DNA of 64,000 nucleotides from an uncultured Clostridia bacterium (GTDB lineage: Bacteria > Bacillota > Clostridia > TANB77 > CAG-508). The position numbers and the translations under genes are program-made. The stretch spans positions 1,437 to 65,436 of the forward strand of contig CAKOVX010000002.1 in NCBI GenBank assembly GCA_934122155.1, read 5' to 3'. This document shows positions 2,804 through 61,826 of this stretch, one piece after another (position 1 is the first letter of the stretch; each line of letters opens with the position of its first letter). The notes under the pieces are model-generated. The model saw only the letters and a program-made list of their open reading frames with translations. It was not told where the DNA came from and did no database searches.

Positions 2804-2810
2804 TTTTTAA

Positions 2811-2880
2811 AGAGGTAGTAATATAATATTTTTGAGCGTGGGAGCTCAAAAATATTATATTACTACCTCTTTATTTATTT
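2811..2880. terminator. bidirectional terminator, 27-bp perfect hairpin
   Basis: agaggtagtaatataatatttttgagc / gctcaaaaatattatattactacctct with AT-rich runs on both sides, between convergent genes. Confidence 0.7.
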
Positions 2881-39650: not shown

Positions 39651-40556
39651 CTAGTCTGTATTTTTAAATAGTTTTACAAATTTATCATTATTTATCCAGT
39701 CTTCGCGTACTTTTACCCACAATTGTAAATTAACTTTATCTTGTAGTTCTTTTTCTAAATCTTCTCTTGCATAAGTTCCAATTTTTTTAAGCATAGCACC
39801 ATTTTTTCCAATGATTATACCTTTGTGCGAATCTCTTAAGCAATAAATTGTAGCTTCTATATTGAAAATTGGCTCATTATCTCTTGTTTTACCTCTTTTC
39901 ATTTTTTCAACTTCTACAAATATCCCATGTGGTACTTCATCTTGTAAAAGTTTTAAAGCTTTTTCACGAATTGTTTCAGATGCTATATCTCTTAAAGTTT
40001 GGTCTGTATATTCATCTATATCATAATATGCAGGACCTTCTTTAAGGTTCTTTTCGATTTCTTCAAGTATAACTTCTGTGTCTTTTGCTTTTAAAGCAGA
40101 AATTGGAATAATGGCTTTGAAATTGTACTCATCTTTAAATGTTTCTATTAGCTTAAAAACTTGTTCTTTTTTAACCAAATCGATTTTATTAATTATCAAA
40201 ATTGTATTAGCTTTTGCTTCTTTAATTTTGTCTAAAATCATTTGGTCACCTTTGCCGATTCCATCTGAAGTAGCTTCCACAACAAATAAAAGTACATCTG
40301 CATCTGGAATGCTGCCCCAAGCAGTGTCATTCATAGTGTTACCTAATTTTGATTTTGGTTTATGAATTCCTGGTGTATCTGTAAATATTATTTGTGAATT
40401 TTTTCTATTTACTATTGCTTTAATAGCTGTTCTTGTGGTTTGTGGTTTATTAACAACCACTGCTACTTTTTGACCAACCATATCATTTAATATACTTGAT
40501 TTTCCTACATTTGTTCTTCCAACAATTGCTACAAATCCTGATTTAAATTTTTCCAT
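39651..40556 (-). CDS. era: GTPase Era
   Basis: GRTNVGKSS G1 and DTPG G3 motifs; C-terminal KH domain. Confidence 0.95.
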   Translation of the reverse strand: MEKFKSGFVAIVGRTNVGKSSILNDMVGQKVAVVVNKPQTTRTAIKAIVNRKNSQIIFTDTPGIHKPKSKLGNTMNDTAWGSIPDADVLLFVVEATSDGIGKGDQMILDKIKEAKANTILIINKIDLVKKEQVFKLIETFKDEYNFKAIIPISALKAKDTEVILEEIEKNLKEGPAYYDIDEYTDQTLRDIASETIREKALKLLQDEVPHGIFVEVEKMKRGKTRDNEPIFNIEATIYCLRDSHKGIIIGKNGAMLKKIGTYAREDLEKELQDKVNLQLWVKVREDWINNDKFVKLFKNTD

Positions 40557-40598
40557 ATCTTCTCCTAATATAATTATATTTTTTACTATTTCCGTACC

Positions 40599-40832
40599 TA
40601 GAAATTATATGTGCCACTTGCAACTGATACACATACAATTTTAAGATTATATTACTTTACAACATAGAAATTATATGTAGAACGCAGGCAACTTCGTCTA
40701 TGCGGAACGAGTATTAGAAATTGTTTTGAGGCGAGTAGGGAATCTCGGTTGTACTGAGGGCGCTACGAGCCGAATAATACAATTTCTTTCGCAGTGCAGT
40801 CTGACAGTTGCAAGTGATACATATAATTTCTA
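40599..40832. repeat. IR-bounded, GC-rich 234-bp element (MITE-like or structured ncRNA) in the era 5' region
   Basis: 28-bp terminal inverted repeats, TAGAAATTATATGTGCCACTTGCAACTG at the left and its complement with 2 mismatches at the right, each flanked by TA; the left 15-mer is partly copied at 40665..40679; the core 40680..40800 is about 50% GC. Confidence 0.5.
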
Positions 40833-40944
40833 ATTTGAAACTAATATAATCTTTTAGCTATTTATTATAGCAAAATTATATTACTATTATAATACAAATT
40901 TTGTAGAAAAATGTAAACAAATTTACACTTTTTTTCTACTATTT

Positions 40945-42678
40945 TTACTTGACAAATTTATATTTTTCTTTTTTAGAATAATGAGTATGTAATAATTTAT
41001 GAGCTAATTCTCCATTAGGTTCGCCTAAAAATTCTTTGTAAACCTGCTTCAACACAGGATTTTTATGCGATTTTCTAATAACACTTTTTTCATCAATTGA
41101 ATACATTGCTTCAGCACGTTTTTTATGTACGTCAACATCTTCTTGAATTTTAGCACTTTTTATAGGTTGCCCTCCACCTGTAATACATCCACCTGGGCAA
41201 GCCATAATTTCAACAAATTGATAATCTGCCTTTCCAGATTTTATCTCTTCCATAATAGTTTGTGCATTTGCTAAACCATGTGCTACTACAACTTTTACCT
41301 TTTCATCTCCAATTTCTATTTCAGATCTCTTTATCCCATTTTCTCCTCTTACTTGTTCAAATGAAATTTTATCTAAAGGTTTTCCTGTTACAATTTCAGA
41401 AACACTTCTAAGAGCTGCTTCCATAACACCACCAGTCACTCCGAAAATTGCAGCTGCACCGGTTGCTTCTCCCATTGGATCATCAAATTTTGCATCTTCT
41501 AAATTTACAAAATCTATTTTAGCCTGTTTAATCATTTTTGCAAGTTCTCTTGTAGTAATAACCGCATCAACATCTTGCTTCATTTCTTCTCTTTGTCTTT
41601 CATATTTTTTAGCAATACATGGCATTACAGACACTACAAACATTTTACTTGAGTCTAATCCTTCTTTTTTAGCATAATATGTTTTTAGTAATGCTCCAAA
41701 CATTTCATGTGGTGATTTACAACTAGACAGATGTCCTATATTTTCTGGATAATTCATTTCAATATATTTTACCCAGCCAGGGCAACATGAAGTTATCATT
41801 GGTAAATTGTCATTATTTTGTAGTCTTTTTATGAATTCTGTTCCTTCTTCAACAATTGTAAAATCTGCACCAGTATTTGTATCAAATACTTTATCAAATC
41901 CCATTTGTTTTAATGCATTTACCATTTTTCCTTCTACATTTGTGCCTATTGGCATTCCAAATTCTTCTCCAAGCGCTACTCTTATAGAAGGAGCAGTTTG
42001 CACTATTACATAAGTATCTTTATCTTTTATTTTGTTCCATACAATTTGTGTTGAATCCTTTTCTGTTAAAGCCCCTGTTGGACATACTTCTATACATTGA
42101 CCACAAAAAGTACAATTTACATCATTTAAACTATTGTGTCCAGCTGTTGAAACACATGAATTGAACCCTCTTTCTGTTACACTTATAGCACCTATTTTTT
42201 GTACTTTATTGCACATTGAAACACATCTTCTACACAATATACATTTATTAGGATCACGTACAATAGATGGAGATTTATCATCTATTTCATAAGTATTTTT
42301 GGTTCCCTCATATACAGTTTTATCTTTATCAAATTGGTTTATAAGGTCTTGTAATTCACAATTTTCGTTTCTTACACAATTATCACAGTCTTGATGATGG
42401 TTAGATAATATTAAGTCTAACATAGTTTTTCTAGCTTCTAAAACTTCTGGTGTTTTGGTATGTACAACCATACCCTCTTCTACCTTTTGAATACAAGAAG
42501 TAGCAAAGCCTCTTTTGCCTTCCACCTCCACAAGGCACATTCTACAGTCTCCAATTTCATTTATTTCTTTTAGATAGCATAATGTTGGAATATCTATATT
42601 CAATTTTGCTGCAGCTTGTAAGATTGTTGTATCTTCTGGCACTGCTATGTTTTTACCATCTATTGTCAGATTTATCAT
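40945..42678 (-). CDS. hydA: [FeFe]-hydrogenase catalytic subunit (HydA/HndD type)
   Basis: N-terminal 2Fe-2S and 4Fe-4S domains; H-cluster motifs TSCCPGW and MPCIAKKYE. Confidence 0.9.
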   Translation of the reverse strand: MINLTIDGKNIAVPEDTTILQAAAKLNIDIPTLCYLKEINEIGDCRMCLVEVEGKRGFATSCIQKVEEGMVVHTKTPEVLEARKTMLDLILSNHHQDCDNCVRNENCELQDLINQFDKDKTVYEGTKNTYEIDDKSPSIVRDPNKCILCRRCVSMCNKVQKIGAISVTERGFNSCVSTAGHNSLNDVNCTFCGQCIEVCPTGALTEKDSTQIVWNKIKDKDTYVIVQTAPSIRVALGEEFGMPIGTNVEGKMVNALKQMGFDKVFDTNTGADFTIVEEGTEFIKRLQNNDNLPMITSCCPGWVKYIEMNYPENIGHLSSCKSPHEMFGALLKTYYAKKEGLDSSKMFVVSVMPCIAKKYERQREEMKQDVDAVITTRELAKMIKQAKIDFVNLEDAKFDDPMGEATGAAAIFGVTGGVMEAALRSVSEIVTGKPLDKISFEQVRGENGIKRSEIEIGDEKVKVVVAHGLANAQTIMEEIKSGKADYQFVEIMACPGGCITGGGQPIKSAKIQEDVDVHKKRAEAMYSIDEKSVIRKSHKNPVLKQVYKEFLGEPNGELAHKLLHTHYSKKEKYKFVK

Positions 42679-45158: not shown

Positions 45159-46028
45159 TTATTGCTGTTTTTTCAATTTCTCAATTTCTTCCTTTGTTAG
45201 TCCAGTTGCTTTAATAATTACTTCTATTTCTACATCTGCTTTTAATAGATTCTTTGCTATTTGTTTTGTGCCTTTTTCAATTCCATCATCTACACCTTTT
45301 GCATATATTGCATGTTCATCTCTTATTGCTTTTTCTCTTAACTCTATTATTCTCTGCATTTTCTCATCTTCACTTATTCTATCTAGTTTTTCTACTGCTT
45401 CTTTTAAATTTTCATTTTCTTCCATTCTTCGTGCCACCCTTTCACTTTCTGGATTTTCCAAAAACATTAGCCAATCTAGTAATTGGTCTTTTTCATTTTC
45501 CTTGCCACTTATTTTCGTTAGTTCAATTATATCAAGCTCGAACTTTTCTGTCAATATTAGCTTTTTAGCACTATTAGTCTCTATTATTTTCCATACACTG
45601 TGATATGCTAGCTCTTCTAAACCTTTTATATTAAAATCTGCTATTAGTATTATTATTGTTTTTTCTAGTTTCTTATAGTCCTCTCCTGCTCTGATTTGCT
45701 TTGTATACATTCTGGACCAATAGTATAATATTCTTTCAATAATATTGTTTTTATCTATTAGCTGCATCTCTATATTGCATTTTTCTTTTCCATCTAGTTC
45801 TGTTATTATATCAAGTACTCCCAATTTATCATCTTTTAATTCTTTTCTTAATATTGGATTTTTGTCTAATGATATTTTTTCTATTTTTCTTTTTAATATT
45901 TTTTCTAAAAAGTCTTTTGTTATATTTTCACTCCCTACTTCTCCAAATATTGCTTGAAATATTATATCCATTTTTGGTGAAAATCTTTTAACTTTCTTTT
46001 TTGATTCTATATTATTAGGCTGTTTCAT
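45159..46028 (-). CDS. Rpn-family recombination-promoting nuclease / putative transposase (PD-(D/E)XK)
   Basis: N-terminal DIIFQAIFG... then ...D...IEMQ nuclease core; family recognised from memory. Confidence 0.7.
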   Translation of the reverse strand: MKQPNNIESKKKVKRFSPKMDIIFQAIFGEVGSENITKDFLEKILKRKIEKISLDKNPILRKELKDDKLGVLDIITELDGKEKCNIEMQLIDKNNIIERILYYWSRMYTKQIRAGEDYKKLEKTIIILIADFNIKGLEELAYHSVWKIIETNSAKKLILTEKFELDIIELTKISGKENEKDQLLDWLMFLENPESERVARRMEENENLKEAVEKLDRISEDEKMQRIIELREKAIRDEHAIYAKGVDDGIEKGTKQIAKNLLKADVEIEVIIKATGLTKEEIEKLKKQQ

Positions 46029-52358: not shown

Positions 52359-52559
52359 TCCTCCATTCTTTATCGTAATTTCTATTTACTCGACATTGAC
52401 ATTTTATAAAATTTAGCTTGACAATATAATTTATTTGAATTATATTTAATATTAGACGTCTGGAAATTTTTAGGTAATTTTATGTTATTTTGTCGAATTA
52501 CTACATTACGATTCTATCACCTTTTTATATTTATATATATTATATGGAGGTAAAATATA

Positions 52560-53266
52560 TGTTAGATTTTGTACTATGTGATGACAACTTTAATGTGCTA
52601 AATAAATTAGAAAAAACATTAGAAACAATTTTTATTGATAAGAATTTTGATGCACGTATTGTTCTTAGTACAACAGCCCCTGAAGAGTTAATTAATTTTA
52701 TGAAACACAACACTGCTCAAGTAGTAATATTAGATATTGATTTAAGATCAAATATTTCAGGGTTAGATCTAGCAAATATGATTCGTAACAAGGATAAAAA
52801 TATTTATATTATTTTTACTACCGGTCATCTAGAATATGGACTAATGGCTTATAAGTACAAAACATTTGATTACATACCTAAGCCTATTACTAGAGAACGT
52901 TTAGAAGATACTATTACTAGACTGTTTGAAGATGTATCTGGTTGCCAAACCGATTTTATAAGATTAGATAATAATAAAACCATAATTAAGCAAGATTCTA
53001 TTCAATACATACAAAAAGATGGAATGAAAACTATATTTTATACAGACACACGTGAATATGAAACAAATAGTTCATTTAAAGCTATTATGCAACAGCTGCC
53101 TGAACAATTTATGCAATGTCATAAATCCTATATTGTAAATACTAGCAAAATTGCTAGTATAGATTCTTCAAATAATACTATTGTATTAAATACAGCAGAT
53201 AAAAACAGCAAATGTTTTATTGGTCCAAAATATAAAAATAAACTTATGGAGGTTTTTAATCATTAA
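52560..53266 (+). CDS. agrA: LytTR-family response regulator (AgrA-like)
   Basis: Receiver domain plus LytTR DNA-binding domain; GGAGG RBS before the ATG at 52560; the ORF-track start at 52490 lacks an RBS. Confidence 0.85.
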
Positions 53267-53291
53267 CATTTTCCAAACAATCTGGACAGCA

Positions 53292-54617
53292 ATGACAACG
53301 CAGAATGAAATGGCATCAATAATAGTATTCTTTCCAATGTACTTTATTGATACTTTTGTAAACATGCTATTTTTCACAACTGTTTTTAACATTTCTTCTT
53401 CTAAAAAATCTAAAATTATTTATGTAATATGTATGGGTCTAATAGCCTTTTCATCTAGAACTTTTATACCAGATCCTTATGGTACATTTATTAATATGAT
53501 CTCTATTATACTTTTAATTAAATTCATTTTGAAAACTACTTGGTTAAAATCTTTCTTATCAGAATTTGTAGTAGTTGTATTAAGTATTATCTTAGAGCTA
53601 TTTTTACAAAAATTCTGTTTAGAAGTTCTTCAGATTTCATATAATTCAATAATGTACGTTCCAATATATAGATGTGGTCTTGCTTTAATAATTTATACTT
53701 TAGTTTATATCCTATATAGAATAATCAAATATTTTAAATTTTCTATTGACTTAGAAAATATGACTAAGAAAAACAAAGTTTTATTCATATTGAATTCTAT
53801 TTTAGGTATTATTGCCATTGCAACTCAAATATACTTAATGGCTTTTTATAGTAGTAATATGCCAATTATAATCACTTTGGTAAGTATTGTAAGTCTACTA
53901 GCATATTTCTTCATTAGTATATACAACATGTTAAGTATTAATAAGTTAAATACCACAACTAGAGATTTAGAAGAAGCTCAGTTATATAATAAAACTTTAA
54001 CAATTTTACATGATAGTATTAGAGGTTTTAAACATGATTTTCACAATATTGTTCAAGGCATTGGTGGTTATGCTGATAGAGGAGACTTAGAAGGTTTAAA
54101 GAAATATTATAAACAACTTATGTTAGATTGTAGTCGTACAAATAATTTAACAGCATTAAATCCTGAAGTTATAAATAATCCTGCTATTTACAATATTATG
54201 GCTACAAAATATCATAAAGCAGATGAAATTGGTGTACAAATTAACTTAGGCATTTTTATGGATCTGAATGAAATTGAAAAACATATGAAGATTTATGAAT
54301 TTACTAGAATTTTAGGTATACTTTTAGATAATGCTATTGAAGCTGCTTCTGAATGTGATGAAAAAGTAATTCATGTAAGTTTTAGAAAAGAAGAAAATAG
54401 ACATCGTTTACTTATGATTATAGAAAATACATATAAAAATAAAGATGTTGATATAGATAAAATTTTTGAAAAAGATTTTTCTACCAAATCAAAGAAGACT
54501 AATAGTGGACTTGGTTTGTGGGAAGTTAGACAAGTATTAAAGAAAAACAATAACCTAAATTTATATACTACTAAAAATGAAGAATTCTTTTCTCAACAAC
54601 TTGAAATATATTTTTAA
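53292..54617 (+). CDS. agrC: AgrC-like (HPK10) membrane sensor histidine kinase
   Basis: Six to seven TM helices, HDFHNIVQGI H-box, GHKL ATPase; start is approximate because the ORF overlaps the agrA end. Confidence 0.8.
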   Translation: MTTQNEMASIIVFFPMYFIDTFVNMLFFTTVFNISSSKKSKIIYVICMGLIAFSSRTFIPDPYGTFINMISIILLIKFILKTTWLKSFLSEFVVVVLSIILELFLQKFCLEVLQISYNSIMYVPIYRCGLALIIYTLVYILYRIIKYFKFSIDLENMTKKNKVLFILNSILGIIAIATQIYLMAFYSSNMPIIITLVSIVSLLAYFFISIYNMLSINKLNTTTRDLEEAQLYNKTLTILHDSIRGFKHDFHNIVQGIGGYADRGDLEGLKKYYKQLMLDCSRTNNLTALNPEVINNPAIYNIMATKYHKADEIGVQINLGIFMDLNEIEKHMKIYEFTRILGILLDNAIEAASECDEKVIHVSFRKEENRHRLLMIIENTYKNKDVDIDKIFEKDFSTKSKKTNSGLGLWEVRQVLKKNNNLNLYTTKNEEFFSQQLEIYF

Positions 54618-54624
54618 AAATTCA

Positions 54625-54665
54625 AAAAAGAGGTACCTGAGCAAACTCAATACCTCTTTTTTGTT
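54625..54665. terminator. bidirectional terminator between agrC and agrD
   Basis: aagaggta...tacctctt hairpin with runs on both sides. Confidence 0.6.
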
Positions 54666-54709
54666 CGTCGTTTTAAGGAAATATTTATATAATTATTTTG
54701 ACTTCAGGA

Positions 54710-54829
54710 CTAGTCTTTTTTAATTAAAGATGCAGGCATTTTTGGTTGATGGATAAGCCCCAAAACAAAGCATGCAGTATTTGTAGATTTTGCATATTTT
54801 TCTGCTAATTTAGCTAATAATTTTACCAT
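54710..54829 (-). CDS. agrD: AgrD autoinducing-peptide precursor (39 aa)
   Basis: MVKLLAKLAEKYAKSTNTACFVLGLIHQPKMPASLIKKD; GGAGGA RBS 7 nt upstream; directly downstream of agrB; Cys followed by an HQP..P.SL motif like clostridial AgrD; under 60 aa so absent from the ORF track. Confidence 0.65.
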   Translation of the reverse strand: MVKLLAKLAEKYAKSTNTACFVLGLIHQPKMPASLIKKD

Positions 54830-54893
54830 TTTAAAATCCTCCTTATATTTTTATTTTTCTATTATAAACATTGCCGGCCAATGTATTACAATC

Positions 54894-55514
54894 TTAAATT
54901 GTTTCTTCTGCATATACTTCGTAGCCATGTTTGTTATTTGTTAGTTTATATGAAATAGGTAGTACTGTTAAATTTTGTAAAAACATTCCGTAAATTATCA
55001 TGTATGAAAATTGTTTATATGGGCTAAATATTATAATTGAGAGTAAAATAACTAATGCAACATAAGCTTTTATCTTTTTAATTTTTCTTTCTTTTTTACT
55101 TAATATTGGCATATTTTCTGTGTCTGCTGGAGCATATTTAGTAATTATAAATATACTAAATATTGCTATAATTCCTGCAAAAATGTATATAATAAATTCT
55201 TGAGAAAATTGTATATATTGAGATAATATTATTGGTCCTAGATATAAAATGCTTGTTGTAATCATACAACCTAAATGAGTTTTTAAATGAAAGCCTCCTG
55301 TAAAACTTCTATATGGAGATATTAGAGAAAATAACAATATAGTTTGCCACCCCATATTTAGTAAAAATCCGATGATAAATAATATTAAAACTTTAGGTAA
55401 CTCACCAAAAATTAGCTTAATTCCAAAATTAATAATTAATTCTCTTTCTTCATCAATGTCTGGCATTTTTGCTTTTATTTTTTCTGTTATCCAATCACAA
55501 AATTTATCTATCAT
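54894..55514 (-). CDS. agrB: accessory gene regulator protein B (AgrD-processing membrane peptidase)
   Basis: About 200-aa polytopic protein with conserved His and Cys (FHLKTHLGC). Confidence 0.85.
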   Translation of the reverse strand: MIDKFCDWITEKIKAKMPDIDEERELIINFGIKLIFGELPKVLILFIIGFLLNMGWQTILLFSLISPYRSFTGGFHLKTHLGCMITTSILYLGPIILSQYIQFSQEFIIYIFAGIIAIFSIFIITKYAPADTENMPILSKKERKIKKIKAYVALVILLSIIIFSPYKQFSYMIIYGMFLQNLTVLPISYKLTNNKHGYEVYAEETI

Positions 55515-55682
55515 TTTTCTTTTCCTCTTTCTTTGTTATCTGTATTCTATAACTTTAATTCACAAAAAAATAAAAACTTTATAAAAATATCAAAATCACA
55601 TGCGAAAAATGTCGTTTTTTGTTTTGTGTGCATTTTTAATATTTTCATAAAGTTTAGTTCAATTTTACAAATATAACTCTAT

Positions 55683-56369
55683 TTATAGTTGAATATCTTT
55701 TAATATTGCCCAGCTTCCAAGCATTTGAGGTATATCTTTAAATTCCATCAACTCATTTGTAATAGGATGATATAGTTTTAACTCATATGCCCAAAGTGCA
55801 ATTTGTTTTCCATGACCTCTTCCACCATATTTTTGGTCTCCATATATACTATGGTTTCTACTAGATAGTTGAACTCTAATTTGATGGTGTCTGCCTGTAT
55901 GCAAATTTATTTTTAAAACTGATAAATTTAATTCTTCATCATATTTTAAAACTTCATAATCTAATATTGCTAGTTTACTATTTTTTTTTTCCTCTTTTAC
56001 AACTTTACTCATATTAGCTTTTTCATTTTTTAATAGGTAATCTTGTAAAGTTCCCTTTGGTTCTTCCATTTTTCCATTTGCTATTACTAAATATGTTTTT
56101 TGAAATTGCTTTTCTCTCACTTGGTTACTTAGTCTTCCTGCTGCTTTTGAAGTTTTAGCAAATACCATTACTCCACCAACTGGTCTATCAAGCCTATGTA
56201 CTAAGCCTAAATATACATTGCCTGGTTTATTATATTTTTCTTTTAAATATGCTTTTATTATTGTAAGCATATCTATATCTCCAGTTTTGTCTGCCTGTGA
56301 TGGTATGTTTACTGGTTTTTCTACTACTATTATATGGTTATCTTCAAATATTACTTTTAAATTTTGCAT
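55683..56369 (-). CDS. RluA-family pseudouridine synthase
   Basis: HRLDRPVGG catalytic motif. Confidence 0.9.
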   Translation of the reverse strand: MQNLKVIFEDNHIIVVEKPVNIPSQADKTGDIDMLTIIKAYLKEKYNKPGNVYLGLVHRLDRPVGGVMVFAKTSKAAGRLSNQVREKQFQKTYLVIANGKMEEPKGTLQDYLLKNEKANMSKVVKEEKKNSKLAILDYEVLKYDEELNLSVLKINLHTGRHHQIRVQLSSRNHSIYGDQKYGGRGHGKQIALWAYELKLYHPITNELMEFKDIPQMLGSWAILKDIQL

Positions 56370-59697: not shown

Positions 59698-59880
59698 TAG
59701 TTTAGTTTTAGCGCCAGGACAGTTTTTATTTACTGTTGACGAGGTTAGAGCTTATCGAAAGACTCGGCGGATGGCTCTATGGCATGCGTTACTGTCATTA
59801 CATATTAGCAAAAAATTATAGTAATATAATATAACAAATCTAATATGAGTACGCTTTAATTTGTATACCTTACTTTAAGC
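59698..59880 (+). ncRNA. glmS ribozyme (GlcN6P-responsive self-cleaving riboswitch)
   Basis: Conserved core AGCGCCAGGAC...GACGAGG...UUAUCGAA...CGGCGGAUGGC immediately upstream of glmS; a TTGACA-17-TAATAT promoter lies at 59622..59650. Confidence 0.9.
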
Positions 59881-59899: not shown

Positions 59900-61732
59900 A
59901 TGTGTGGCATTATAGGTTATATAGGAGATAGAAAGGCCACTCCAGTTTTAATAAATGGTTTATTATGTTTAGAATATAGAGGTTATGACTCTGCTGGTAT
60001 TGCTGTTATTGAAGATGGCAAAATTGCTGTAATGAAGGATAAAGGAAGAGTTGCAAATTTAAGTTCTCTTCCTGGCATTGATGATTTAGCTTCTACTATT
60101 GGTATTGCTCATACAAGATGGGCAACTCATGGAAAACCTGCAAAGGAAAATGCACATCCACATTTAGATAATAGCGGAGAATTTGCAGTAGTTCATAATG
60201 GTATTATTGAAAATTACAATGAATTAAGAGAATTTTTAACATCTAAAGGGTATCACTTTTTATCACAAACAGACACAGAGATGATTCCTAATTTAATTCA
60301 TTATTATTACACAAATGGTATAAATGATGATGACAAATTCTTAAGAGCTGTTAAGTCTGCTGTTGATGATTTAAAAGGAAGTTATGCATTAGAAATTATT
60401 TCTAGCTTACATCCTGACAGAGTTATTGTTGTTAGAAAAGATAGTCCTTTAGTTTTAGGAAAAGGAAATGGTGAAAACTTTATTGCATCAGATATTCCTG
60501 CTGCTTTAAAATATACAAAGGAATTCTATTTGTTAGATGACCAAGAATATGCTGTTGTTTATAAAGATCATATTGATTTTTATGATAATAGCCTAACTCC
60601 TCACAGCAAAGCTGTTAAAAATATTGAATGGGATGCTACTGCTGCTGAGAAAAATGGTTATGAAGATTATATGTTAAAAGAAATATTTGAGCAACCAAAT
60701 GCAATTCGTGAGACTATTGGCTCAAGATTTAAACTTGGCGAAAAATGTAGTTTTGATGATATTGATATTTCAAAAGATTATTTGAAAAGTATTAATAAAA
60801 TATATATTGTTGCATGTGGTACAGCTATGCATGCCGGATTAGTTGGTAAAACTGCAATTGAAAAACTTTGCAGAATTCCTACCGTAGTTGATATTGCATC
60901 TGAGTTTCGTTACCGTGACCCTATTATAGATGATAAAACACTTTGCATATATATTAGTCAATCTGGTGAAACTGCTGATACTATTGCAGCTTTAAAACTT
61001 GCTAAAGCAAAAGGTGCAAGAACATTAGCTGTTTCAAATGTAATTGGAAGTTCAATTACTCGTGAAGCAGACTATACAATTTACACACATGCAGGTCCTG
61101 AAATTGCCGTTGCTTCTACAAAAGCATATACTTCACAAGTTGTTTTAATGGTAATTTTGGCTATGTATTTTGCTGAAATTTTAGGCACTTGTGACAATAT
61201 TGAATGTTTAAAAGCAGATATTTTAGATTTGCCTTCTAAAATAGAGTCTATACTTAACGAAACAAATAATATTAAAGAGTTTGCTAATAAAGTATATACT
61301 GAACATGATATGTACTTTTTAGGTAGAGGTACTGATTATAATGTTGCAATGGAGGGCTCTTTAAAATTAAAAGAAATTTCATACATTCATTCTGAGGCAT
61401 ATGCTTCAGGCGAATTAAAACATGGGCCTATTGCTCTAATTGAAAACGGTATAACTGTAATTAGTATTTTAACAGATCCTAATTTAGTTGAAAAATCTAT
61501 TAGTAATATTCAAGAGGTTATAACAAGAGGTGCTAAAACATTAGTTATTACAAATCAAAAATTATCAAATAATTCGTTTAATTATGTTATAAATATCCCT
61601 GAAACTAATAGCCTAATTTCACCTATTCTTTCAGTTATTCCACTTCAATTGCTTTCTTACTACATTGCTAAAAATAAAGGATTAGATGTTGATAAACCAA
61701 GAAATTTAGCTAAATCAGTTACAGTTGAGTAG
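59900..61732 (+). CDS. glmS: glutamine--fructose-6-phosphate aminotransferase
   Basis: MCGIIGY N-terminal nucleophile; two SIS domains; 610 aa. Confidence 0.97.
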   Translation: MCGIIGYIGDRKATPVLINGLLCLEYRGYDSAGIAVIEDGKIAVMKDKGRVANLSSLPGIDDLASTIGIAHTRWATHGKPAKENAHPHLDNSGEFAVVHNGIIENYNELREFLTSKGYHFLSQTDTEMIPNLIHYYYTNGINDDDKFLRAVKSAVDDLKGSYALEIISSLHPDRVIVVRKDSPLVLGKGNGENFIASDIPAALKYTKEFYLLDDQEYAVVYKDHIDFYDNSLTPHSKAVKNIEWDATAAEKNGYEDYMLKEIFEQPNAIRETIGSRFKLGEKCSFDDIDISKDYLKSINKIYIVACGTAMHAGLVGKTAIEKLCRIPTVVDIASEFRYRDPIIDDKTLCIYISQSGETADTIAALKLAKAKGARTLAVSNVIGSSITREADYTIYTHAGPEIAVASTKAYTSQVVLMVILAMYFAEILGTCDNIECLKADILDLPSKIESILNETNNIKEFANKVYTEHDMYFLGRGTDYNVAMEGSLKLKEISYIHSEAYASGELKHGPIALIENGITVISILTDPNLVEKSISNIQEVITRGAKTLVITNQKLSNNSFNYVINIPETNSLISPILSVIPLQLLSYYIAKNKGLDVDKPRNLAKSVTVE

Positions 61733-61761
61733 CTTTTATAAAATATAAATATTAATTTAAA

Positions 61762-61826
61762 GGTGCTGATATAATACTTTTTTCCACGAAACCACACTTC
61801 AAAAAAGTATTATATCAGCACCTTTA
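61762..61826. terminator. bidirectional terminator, 25-bp perfect hairpin
   Basis: aaaggtgctgatataatactttttt / aaaaaagtattatatcagcaccttt between convergent glmS and bofA. Confidence 0.7.

What the first reader, a model, noticed from the sequence alone, without database searches (positions are those of the whole stretch)
40599..40832. IR-bounded, GC-rich 234-bp element with TA flanks in the era upstream region (MITE-like or structured ncRNA)
Seen directly: the termini are 28-bp inverted repeats (left TAGAAATTATATGTGCCACTTGCAACTG; right reverse complement TAGAAATTATATGTATCACTTGCAACTG; 26/28 match; one difference forms a G-U wobble at the RNA level). A TA dinucleotide sits on the outer side of each IR, consistent with a TA target-site duplication of Tc1/mariner/IS630-type MITEs. 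A partial third copy of the IR 5' 15-mer lies at 40665..40679. The core (40680..40800) is about 50% GC against a background of about 27% and has several local hairpins (cgag-tagggaat-ctcg; ggc-gctacga-gcc). No ORF is present. The element lies 43 nt upstream of the era start codon, on the strand that would be the era 5' UTR, and downstream of the hydABC operon. I could not match it to tRNA, tmRNA, RNase P, SRP, 6S, T-box or common riboswitch consensus sequences from memory.
Basis: seen in the sequence. Interest (0 to 1): 0.65.

Follow-up and report, generated by a model that had tools for sequence, protein, structure and literature searches.

The report
Flippable hairpin cassette in era leader
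A single-copy 234-bp DNA segment bounded by inverted repeats sits in the leader of the essential era GTPase operon of an uncultured gut Clostridia lineage; related strains carry it flipped, trimmed or deleted, so it is not a multicopy transposon relic but a conserved regulatory-type cassette whose function is still unknown.

Summary
Arms of 28 nt (26/28) at 40599-40626 and 40805-40832 enclose a 47%-GC core in a 28%-GC window.

The MITE reading fails. Every one of 87 related loci lies at the same hydA-era site, with one locus per genome. There is no precise empty site. No Rfam family, tRNA, phage or plasmid matches.

The element lies between a conserved sigma-70-type promoter (P1) and the era ribosome-binding site.

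Related strains carry it in both orientations, flipped exactly at the repeats. The window core and the flipped L007 core are 125/125 identical. Some strains lack 66 bp or 144 bp, lost between direct copies of an AAATTRTAT motif. One strain lacks the whole element.

Orientation never varies within an allele family (48 forward, 24 reverse), so fast phase variation is not shown. No recombinase gene lies in the 64 kb.

The core diverges 4-8 times more slowly than third codon positions, in both orientations. It is therefore under selection, although support for a conserved RNA structure is weak.

Best reading, at about 0.35 confidence: a rarely flipping, inverton-like leader cassette. It always adds a repeat-closed hairpin to the era mRNA. 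Its orientation sets which strand is transcribed and where an outward promoter-like site points.

The parts
40599..40626 (.). Era-proximal 28-nt inverted repeat arm (TAGAAATTATATGTGCCACTTGCAACTG). It consists of the outer 15-mer plus a 12-bp near-palindrome, CACTTGCAACTG.
40805..40832 (.). hydA-proximal 28-nt inverted repeat arm (CAGTTGCAAGTGATACATATAATTTCTA).
40627..40664 (.). 38-nt AT-rich spacer. Together with 40599-40626 it forms the 66-bp block that is missing in 'short' alleles. It evolves at about the neutral rate (5/38 differences between the window and L007).
40665..40679 (+). Internal third copy of the 15-mer TAGAAATTATATGTA. It is a direct repeat of 40599-40613 (end points of the 66-bp deletion) and an inverted repeat of 40818-40832.
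40680..40804 (.). 125-nt GC-rich core under purifying selection in both orientations. On the + strand it folds as a rod-like hairpin (-39.1 kcal/mol, z -2.15). On the - strand (era-sense here) it folds only weakly (-24.3 kcal/mol, z -0.83).
40889..40917 (-). P1, a conserved sigma-70-type promoter (TTTACA-17-TATTAT) upstream of the element. It is present in nearly all alleles. In the element-less allele L056 it is the only promoter-like site left in front of era.
40801..40827 (+). Outward-facing promoter-like site (CTGACA-15 nt-TATAAT) spanning the core end and the repeat arm. In this window it points at P1 and hydA. In flipped alleles it points at era. The 15-nt spacer is sub-optimal. This site is inferred, not shown.
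   Evidence: sequence; conservation
40633..40641 (-). AAATTGTAT, one of the two direct repeats at which the 144-bp core deletion occurred.
40777..40785 (-). AAATTGTAT, the partner direct repeat of the 144-bp deletion. It is also the 3' half of the inner stem AGAAATTGT/ACAATTTCT.
40818..40853 (.). Right arm of a second, overlapping inverted repeat (40643-40679 with 40818-40853, built from pairs I3 and I4). It extends into the upstream flank.
40557..40598 (-). Flank between the element and the era start codon, including the Shine-Dalgarno sequence AGGAGA. It evolves at about the neutral rate and exists as unrelated haplotypes among strains.
39651..40556 (-). era (GTPase Era, 301 aa), first gene of era-yqzL-recO.
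40726..40833 (+). 35-aa TTG ORF in the frame where the substitutions show 3-base periodicity. It has no Shine-Dalgarno sequence and no homologue. Recorded as unexplained, not as a gene.

Best explanation
The feature is a single-copy cassette bounded by inverted repeats. It is built into the 5' leader of the era-yqzL-recO operon, between the conserved promoter P1 and the era ribosome-binding site. The host is an uncultured human-gut Clostridia lineage of the Clostridium sp. CAG:508 group.

Shown:
- The DNA between the repeats has been inverted precisely at the repeats at least once, and probably twice, during the diversification of this lineage.
- It has also been trimmed or lost by deletion between direct copies of the AAATTRTAT(GT) motif that also makes up the repeats.
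- The 125-nt core is kept by purifying selection whichever way round it lies.

Inferred mechanism:
- The cassette acts in cis on era expression, like the leader-embedded invertible switches of Clostridioides difficile.
- In every allele the P1 transcript carries a long hairpin closed by the repeats (14-28 bp of near-perfect duplex, a plausible RNase III substrate) ahead of the era ribosome-binding site.
- Orientation decides which strand of the core is in the mRNA. In this window it is the C-rich, weakly folded strand. In flipped alleles it is the G-rich, tightly folded strand.
- Orientation also decides whether the outward promoter-like site CTGACA-15-TATAAT fires back against P1 (this window) or towards era (flipped alleles).
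- Flipping is rare. Orientation is fixed within each allele family, so this behaves as a slow, evolutionary switch rather than as demonstrated fast phase variation. The enzyme, if any, is encoded outside this window.
For: Position. P1 (TTTACA-17-TATTAT, 10/12 consensus matches) lies upstream of the element and is conserved across alleles. In L056 the whole element is gone and P1 sits about 50 nt from the era ATG.

Inversion. In L005, L006 and L007 the flanks are colinear with the window but the interior matches on the opposite strand. The L007, L055 and L057 alleles are the whole 234-bp element flipped exactly at the 28-nt arms. Their core is 125/125 identical to the window core, although era and hydA third codon positions differ by about 10% and the internal spacer by 5/38.

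Number of events. The short (66-bp-deleted) forms also occur in both orientations. Core substitutions group long with long and short with short, which favours two inversions.

End points. Every inversion and both internal deletions end at copies of AAATTRTAT. Six of the 28 window copies of this motif lie within 280 bp here.

Selection. Core divergence is 0-6%, against 8-30% at third codon positions, in forward-forward, reverse-reverse and forward-reverse comparisons.

Hairpin. Every allele folds the element as an autonomous repeat-closed domain. The whole element folds with z = -6.2 on the minus strand and -7.3 on the plus strand. One compensatory G-C to U-A change in the closing stem is fixed in 22 loci.

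Scale. Size and layout match leader-embedded switches: the C. difficile flagellar switch is 154 bp, flanked by imperfect inverted repeats, lies upstream of flgB and acts through Rho after initiation (PMC7446863).
Against: - Orientation never differs within an allele family. This holds for 48 forward and 24 reverse loci, plus many 'similar places not shown', including about 17 forward-long and 9 reverse-long contigs with intact 28-bp repeats. Frequent switching is therefore not seen and would have to be strongly biased.
- No tyrosine or serine recombinase domain is present anywhere in the 64-kb window.
- Other deletions in the same spacer occur at unrelated microhomologies (a 38-bp deletion, and the L056 deletion). 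Generic slippage or palindrome instability can therefore explain the rearrangements without an enzyme.
- No orientation-specific terminator or occlusion of the ribosome-binding site is predicted.
- The outward promoter has a 15-nt spacer and is unverified.
- era is expected to be essential, an unusual target for on/off switching.
- Fifteen of 87 loci lack the core, so whatever it does is dispensable.
Confidence: 0.35

Rival explanations
1. The element is an orientation-insensitive leader hairpin. Its job is simply to place a long duplex (an RNase III processing or stability site) in the era mRNA. A hairpin stays a hairpin when reverse-complemented, so rare inversions caused by repeat-mediated recombination or template switching are tolerated and have no regulatory meaning.
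For: A repeat-closed hairpin domain is predicted in every allele and both orientations, including the 144-bp-deleted form, which keeps a 28-bp stem. A compensatory change occurs in the closing stem. Orientation is fixed per lineage. Many microhomology deletions in the same region point to palindrome instability. There is precedent that era expression can be set by RNase III cleavage of an operon leader in E. coli rnc-era-recO (Bardwell et al. 1989, as listed in PMC8708148).
Against: It does not explain why the primary sequence of the 125-nt core, loops included, is conserved 4-8 times better than silent sites. Meanwhile 6 of 12 stem changes break pairs on both strands. The core folds much less well in the forward sense (z -0.83) than in the reverse sense (z -2.15). 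The element-less allele L056 shows the hairpin is dispensable.
Confidence: 0.25
2. The element is an active, recombinase-driven phase-variation switch (a true inverton) that turns era-recO expression up and down within clonal populations. One orientation is strongly favoured in the gut for each allele, so assemblies always show the majority state.
For: Precise inversion at the repeats. Probable inversion across repeats of only 14-15 bp in the short clade, too short for efficient homologous recombination. A motif array in both orientations, as in multi-site inversion systems. Recombinases of known clostridial switches act in trans from distant loci (PMC7446863).
Against: None of 72 core-bearing loci deviates from its allele family's orientation. 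Forward-long and reverse-long alleles carry the same element yet are fixed in opposite states. No recombinase lies in the window. Read-level heterogeneity could not be examined.
Confidence: 0.15
3. The core is a self-contained gene, either a small RNA read from the window's + strand or a 21-43-aa peptide in that strand's frame. It works regardless of orientation because it is expressed independently of era.
For: The core is selected in both orientations. The + strand folds better. Three of four one-sided stem transitions are wobble-compatible only on that strand, and two of those three arose in alleles where that strand is antisense to era. Variable columns fall 10/5/1 on codon positions 3/1/2 of the + strand frame. 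By my own hand count after adding the later loci this becomes about 11/5/1, chi-square p about 0.01. A +G insertion in forward-short alleles creates an ATG in that frame.
Against: No consistent promoter for that strand exists across alleles, and there is no terminator. There is no Shine-Dalgarno sequence, the stop codons vary, and most alleles have no canonical start. No Pfam family and no homologous protein were found among 5.8 billion proteins. No Rfam family matches. Silent positions of the putative ORF are themselves conserved, so coding alone cannot explain the constraint.
Confidence: 0.12
4. The element is a relic of a MITE or other small mobile element (IS630/mariner-type, TA target) that inserted once upstream of era in an ancestor and is now immobile.
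For: Terminal inverted repeats of 28 bp begin with TA. The core's GC content is foreign to the genome. Sub-terminal repeated motifs occur in both orientations. It resembles the Correia elements of Neisseria, which have inverted repeats, a conserved core, promoters at either end and RNase III binding (PMC2649163).
Against: There is one locus per genome and none elsewhere in genome, metagenome, viral, phage or plasmid searches. There is no precise empty site. No transposase is known for it. A dead relic would not keep its core 4-8 times more conserved than silent sites while its own internal spacer drifts.
Confidence: 0.08

Closest known systems
Clostridioides difficile leader-embedded invertible switches (the 154-bp flgB 'flagellar switch'; the cwpV switch; recombinase RecV)
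   Same: A short DNA segment of about 150-230 bp, flanked by imperfect inverted repeats, lying between a fixed promoter and the coding sequence so that it is part of the 5' UTR. Both orientations are found in nature. The recombinase is not adjacent. The host is a low-GC Clostridia member (PMC7446863; cwpV from my own knowledge).
   Different: Here the orientation is fixed per allele lineage in 72 loci, and no within-population switching has been shown. No recombinase has been identified. The core is GC-rich and conserved in both orientations. No orientation-specific terminator or rut site could be shown. The downstream gene is a housekeeping GTPase rather than a surface or motility factor.
Correia repeat-enclosed elements (CREE) of Neisseria and other bacterial MITEs
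   Same: Inverted repeats of about 26-28 bp enclosing a conserved core. They begin with TA, have outward promoter-like hexamers at the ends, and form a long hairpin when co-transcribed with a neighbouring gene, which RNase III can bind or cut (PMC2649163).
   Different: CREE are present in many dispersed copies with insertion polymorphism. This element has exactly one locus per genome, no empty site and no relatives elsewhere.
RNase III-cleaved leader hairpin of the E. coli rnc-era-recO operon
   Same: A long duplex in the leader of the operon that contains era and recO. This offers a route to set Era levels post-transcriptionally (PMC8708148 and its reference 37).
   Different: There is no sequence relationship. 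Here rnc is not in the operon. Cleavage is only inferred from the 14-28 bp duplex.
Horizontally switched intergenic (regulatory) regions between closely related strains
   Same: Strains with identical flanking genes (0/2106 and 1/700 differences) carry unrelated flank haplotypes and different element forms.
   Different: That concept (from my own knowledge of the E. coli literature) describes whole-region replacement. It does not explain the conserved core or the inversion.

Membership tests
Inverton / invertible DNA switch | Invertible segment flanked by inverted repeats | tested here: met
   28-nt arms, 26/28 matching; 0 of 100 shuffles reach this. The short alleles keep 14-15-nt arms.
Inverton / invertible DNA switch | Both orientations occur, with break points in the repeats and unchanged flanks | tested here: met
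   Forward-long versus reverse-long, and forward-short versus reverse-short alleles. This holds only between allele lineages.
Inverton / invertible DNA switch | Reversible switching within a clonal population (mixed orientations on identical flanks) | tested here: not met
   At the level of assembled contigs, 48 forward and 24 reverse loci show no exception within any allele family. Read-level data could not be examined, so low-frequency switching is not excluded.
Inverton / invertible DNA switch | Cognate site-specific recombinase (tyrosine or serine family) | tested here: inconclusive
   None in the 64-kb window according to the Pfam annotation of the called genes and NCBIfam. Only an Rpn-family PD-(D/E)XK nuclease is present, at 45159..46028. 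The rest of the genome was not available.
Inverton / invertible DNA switch | Orientation-dependent regulatory content (promoter, terminator or leader signal) | tested here: inconclusive
   An outward CTGACA-15-TATAAT site exists, and strand composition and folding are asymmetric. No terminator or ribosome-binding-site occlusion specific to one orientation was found.
MITE (IS630/mariner-type) | Terminal inverted repeats | tested here: met
MITE (IS630/mariner-type) | Multiple dispersed copies in the genome or in relatives | tested here: not met
   One locus per genome in 5 genomes. All 18 metagenome hits lie at the era site. No second copy in the window. No phage, plasmid or viral hits.
MITE (IS630/mariner-type) | Target-site duplication and precise empty sites | tested here: not met
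   The TA is part of the repeat arm, and the bases outside are CC and AT. The only element-less allele arose by deletion between 10-bp flank repeats.
Any Rfam 15 RNA family (riboswitch, 6S, SRP, RNase P, tmRNA, T-box, ribozymes) | Covariance-model match at or near the gathering score | tested here: not met
   No hit at gathering score. At E<=10 there were only two spurious hits of about 15 bits outside the core. ARAGORN was negative.
Conserved structured RNA (new family) | Base pairs supported by covariation; variation concentrated in loops | tested here: inconclusive
   One compensatory pair and 4 wobble-compatible changes on the + strand among 11 variants. With 17 variants, 6 of 12 stem changes break pairs, and the loop enrichment falls to p = 0.067. 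Sequence diversity is too low for a verdict.

The most novel reading that the evidence does not exclude
The cassette is a working DNA-inversion switch, driven by an unlinked and possibly unconventional recombinase acting on the AAATTRTAT(GT) motif array. It phase-varies the level of the ribosome-assembly GTPase Era (and of RecO), giving a small-genome, uncultured gut bacterium a bet-hedging control over growth rate. Its conserved GC-rich core would be a new orientation-dependent leader RNA or promoter module.
Probability: 0.12. Interest if true: 0.75.

Novelty: new variant of a known kind. Interest (0 to 1): 0.5.

Why it matters
Known invertible switches almost always control surface structures, motility, restriction-modification specificity or resistance genes. 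A repeat-bounded, orientation-polymorphic cassette in the leader of era-recO would extend this logic to core growth machinery, in a lineage (CAG-508 group) that has never been cultured.

Even on the conservative reading the locus is useful. Within one species it provides natural forward, reverse, core-deleted and element-less alleles on near-identical backgrounds. This is a ready-made allelic series for testing what a long leader hairpin and a conserved 125-nt core do to an essential operon.

It also illustrates that a pair of inverted repeats with TA ends is not enough to call a MITE.

Tried and rejected
- **Known RNA families.** Rfam on the whole window at gathering score and on 40450-41000 at E<=10 found nothing relevant. 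A tRNA/tmRNA scan was negative.
- **Other copies.** The 28-mer, the 15-mer and the core were searched in the window, genomes, metagenomes, viral contigs, and phages and plasmids. Only the era locus was found.
- **Recombinase in the neighbourhood.** None was found.
- **Orientation-specific occlusion of the ribosome-binding site or an intrinsic terminator.** Not found.
- **A dedicated promoter for the + strand of the core.** No consistent candidate exists across alleles.
- **Strand asymmetry of folding as proof of an RNA.** It is mostly compositional: 26 of 500 shuffles reach the observed difference.
- **A small protein.** No Pfam match and no homologue were found, and starts and stops are inconsistent among alleles.
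- **Within-lineage switching.** Four extra allele families were sampled and none showed a second orientation.
- **Operator-like palindromes.** TGTAAA-N4-TTTACA at P1 and CASTTGCAASTG in the repeats have no further meaningful copies in the window.
- **Correction of my own labels.** The deletion I first called 147 bp is 144 bp (repeat spacing 40633 to 40777).
- **Inversion count.** The claim of two independent inversions rests on a few substitutions. One inversion plus two parallel 66-bp deletions is not excluded.

Full report
**1. What is in the window**

Genes around the finding are all on the minus strand:
- a NuoE-like gene, a NuoF-like gene and an [FeFe]-hydrogenase large-subunit gene (HydCBA-type operon), ending at 40945;
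- then era (39651..40556), a yqzL-like gene and recO.

They are 26/28 complementary with 178 nt between them. No dinucleotide shuffle of the window produces such a pair. A third copy of the outer 15-mer sits at 40665-40679. The core 40680-40804 is 47% GC in a 28% GC window.

A sigma-70-type promoter, TTTACA-17-TATTAT (10/12 consensus matches), lies at 40917..40889 on the minus strand. That is upstream of the element and reads towards era. I call it P1. The element is therefore inside the era leader.

**2. Known families**

Rfam 15 gives nothing in the region, either at gathering threshold or at E<=10 on either strand. ARAGORN finds no tRNA or tmRNA. The only Rfam hit in the window is a glmS ribozyme at 59699-59857.

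**3. Copy number: the MITE test**

- A scan of one genome per species (185,579 species) with the 28-mer found five genomes, all uncultured Clostridia MAGs or Clostridium sp. CAG:508. Each had a single locus.
- A metagenome scan with a 21-mer from the core found 18 contigs. All lie directly upstream of era.
- There are no hits in viral contigs, phages or plasmids.
- There is no second copy in the window.
- Sampling eight Era alleles through their encoding contigs raised the set to 87 loci, all at the same position.

The element is therefore single-copy and site-fixed. The TA ends are simply the first two bases of the arms. The MITE reading fails on copy number and on empty sites.

**4. The main new fact: inversion and deletion polymorphism**

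Aligning the loci in the era-sense orientation shows several discrete forms:

| Form | Description | Examples |
|---|---|---|
| Forward-long | The window type | window, L001, L004 |
| Reverse-long | The whole 234 bp flipped exactly at the 28-nt arms | L007, L055, L057 |
| Forward-short, reverse-short | The 66 bp between the direct 15-mers 40599 and 40665 is missing, leaving 14-15-nt repeats | L003, L012 (forward); L005, L006 (reverse) |
| Core-deleted | 144 bp lost between direct AAATTGTAT repeats at 40633 and 40777; both 28-nt arms kept | 14 loci |
| 38-bp upstream deletion | Occurs in combination with other forms | L045, L030 |
| Element-less | Element and flanks lost between AAATATTAAA repeats; P1 left about 50 nt from the ATG | L056 |

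Among the 72 core-bearing loci, 48 are forward and 24 are reverse.

The reverse-long core is 125/125 identical to the window core. In the same comparison, era and hydA third codon positions differ by about 10% and the spacer inside the element differs by 5/38.

Core substitutions group long with long and short with short. This favours two inversions and one 66-bp deletion. One inversion plus two parallel deletions cannot be excluded.

Every inversion and both internal deletions end at copies of AAATTRTAT. Six of the 28 copies of this motif in the window are packed into 40602-40881.

**5. Is it switching now?**

Orientation is perfectly tied to the allele family, defined by the flank haplotype. 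No family shows both states:
- the forward-long family, about 17 contigs;
- the reverse-long family, 3 shown plus 6 similar;
- two reverse-short families, more than 20 contigs;
- two forward-short families, more than 25 contigs.

Forward-long and reverse-long carry the same element with intact 28-bp repeats, yet they are fixed in opposite states. This argues against fast switching combined with a common preferred state.

No tyrosine or serine recombinase is encoded in the 64 kb. The only recombination-related gene is an Rpn-family PD-(D/E)XK nuclease at 45159..46028.

Reads could not be examined, so low-level switching remains open.

Strains with identical flanking genes carry different intergenic alleles. 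L036 and L037, for example, differ at 0/2106 and 1/700 positions. Recombinant alleles with break points inside the element also exist (L020, L035, L064). The whole leader therefore segregates as alternative alleles in a recombining population.

**6. Is it functional?**

The core differs by 0-6% between lineages whose era and hydA third codon positions differ by 8-30%. This holds in forward-forward, reverse-reverse and forward-reverse comparisons. The flanks and the internal spacer drift at about the neutral rate. The core is therefore under purifying selection in both orientations. Yet it is absent from 15 of 87 loci, so it is dispensable.

**7. What kind of constraint?**

RNA structure:
- The whole element folds far better than shuffles on both strands (z = -6.2 and -7.3), mainly because of the repeat stem.
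- The core alone folds at -39.1 kcal/mol (z -2.15) on the + strand and -24.3 kcal/mol (z -0.83) on the era-sense strand. Most of that asymmetry is compositional.
- On 11 variants there is one compensatory pair in the closing stem and four wobble-compatible changes on the + strand.
- On 17 variants, six stem changes break pairs on both strands, and loop enrichment of variable columns is only p = 0.067.
- Support for a conserved RNA fold is therefore weak.

Coding:
- Variable columns fall 10/5/1 on codon positions 3/1/2 of one + strand frame, the frame of ORF 40726..40833.
- By my own hand count, the later variants keep this pattern (about 11/5/1, p about 0.01).
- However, starts and stops are inconsistent among alleles and there is no Shine-Dalgarno sequence. 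No Pfam family and no homologue exist. Silent positions are themselves conserved.

I record this periodicity as unexplained.

**8. Orientation-dependent content**

Leader folds predict the same repeat-closed domain in every allele. No orientation-specific occlusion of the ribosome-binding site is predicted, and there is no intrinsic terminator.

Two things differ with orientation:
- The strand of the core carried by the P1 transcript. In this window it is the C-rich, weakly folded strand. In reverse alleles it is the G-rich, tightly folded strand.
- The direction of an invariant outward promoter-like site, CTGACA-15-TATAAT (40801-40827, + strand). Here it faces P1 and hydA. In reverse alleles it faces era. 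Its 15-nt spacer is sub-optimal and its activity is unknown.

**9. Interpretation**

The best-supported statement is anatomical. This is a single-copy, repeat-bounded, inversion- and deletion-polymorphic cassette in the era leader, with a selected core.

Mechanistically I favour, at about 0.35, a slow inverton-like cis-regulatory cassette. It resembles the leader-embedded switches of C. difficile, for example the 154-bp flagellar switch, which has imperfect inverted repeats and acts through Rho after initiation (PMC7446863).

The rivals are:
- an orientation-insensitive RNase III-type leader hairpin whose inversions are incidental (0.25);
- a fully active phase-variation switch (0.15);
- a self-expressed small RNA or peptide cassette (0.12);
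- a MITE relic (0.08). The resemblance to Correia elements (PMC2649163) is real in form but fails on copy number.

**10. Verdict**

The MITE interpretation is rejected. 'Structured element in the era 5' UTR' is partly right.

The new and more interesting facts are the natural inversion, the allelic series and the orientation-independent conservation of the core. The function remains unproven, and the decisive experiments are listed under next steps.

Noticed in passing
window 59699-59857 (+): A glmS ribozyme (Rfam RF00234, 86 bits) lies directly upstream of glmS (59900..61732).
   Followed up: no
window 40896-40946, especially 40912-40927: A perfect 16-bp palindrome, TGTAAACAAATTTACA, overlaps the -35 hexamer of P1. 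It is nested in a GTAGAAAAA/TTTTTCTAC inverted repeat between the hydA stop codon and P1. It is invariant across lineages whose neighbouring spacer is scrambled, so it looks like an operator. No other good copy exists in the window.
   Followed up: partly
window 45159..46028 (-): An Rpn-family recombination-promoting PD-(D/E)XK nuclease / putative transposase gene (TIGR01784, 151 bits) lies just upstream of the hydrogenase operon, 4.3 kb from the element.
   Followed up: partly
window 2808-2873 and 61758-61826: Two perfect long hairpins (30-bp and 26-bp stems) with similar arm sequences (TAAAGAGGTAGTAATATAAT... and TAAAGGTGCTGATATAAT...). They may be a small repeat family or bidirectional terminators.
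   Followed up: no
window 22550-22570/22811-22831 and 57289-57309/57427-57447: Two more short intergenic segments bounded by 21-nt, 95% inverted repeats, with 240 nt and 117 nt between the arms. They are untested candidates for further invertible or hairpin elements.
   Followed up: no
L036 vs L037; L031/L033/L038/L043; recombinants L020, L035, L064: Strains with identical hydA, era and recO sequences carry unrelated leader alleles. Some alleles are mosaics with break points inside the element. The era leader therefore segregates as swapped regulatory alleles within one species.
   Followed up: partly
window 40726..40833 (+) and homologous positions in all loci: Substitutions in the core show 3-base periodicity in one frame, and a +G insertion in forward-short alleles creates an ATG in that frame. 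No Shine-Dalgarno sequence and no homologue were found, and the stop codons are inconsistent.
   Followed up: yes
L015 1250-2100; L063 and L065 upstream ends: A few contigs have a different gene upstream of the element instead of hydA: a divergent ORF in L015, and a glycosyltransferase family 28 gene in L063 and L065. In L015 the P1 region is replaced and the era ORF is broken, which may reflect a rearrangement or a chimeric assembly.
   Followed up: partly
window 52490-56369: An agr-like quorum-sensing cluster: AgrB (54894..55514), a 39-aa ORF, an HATPase_c_5 histidine kinase and a LytTR response regulator.
   Followed up: no
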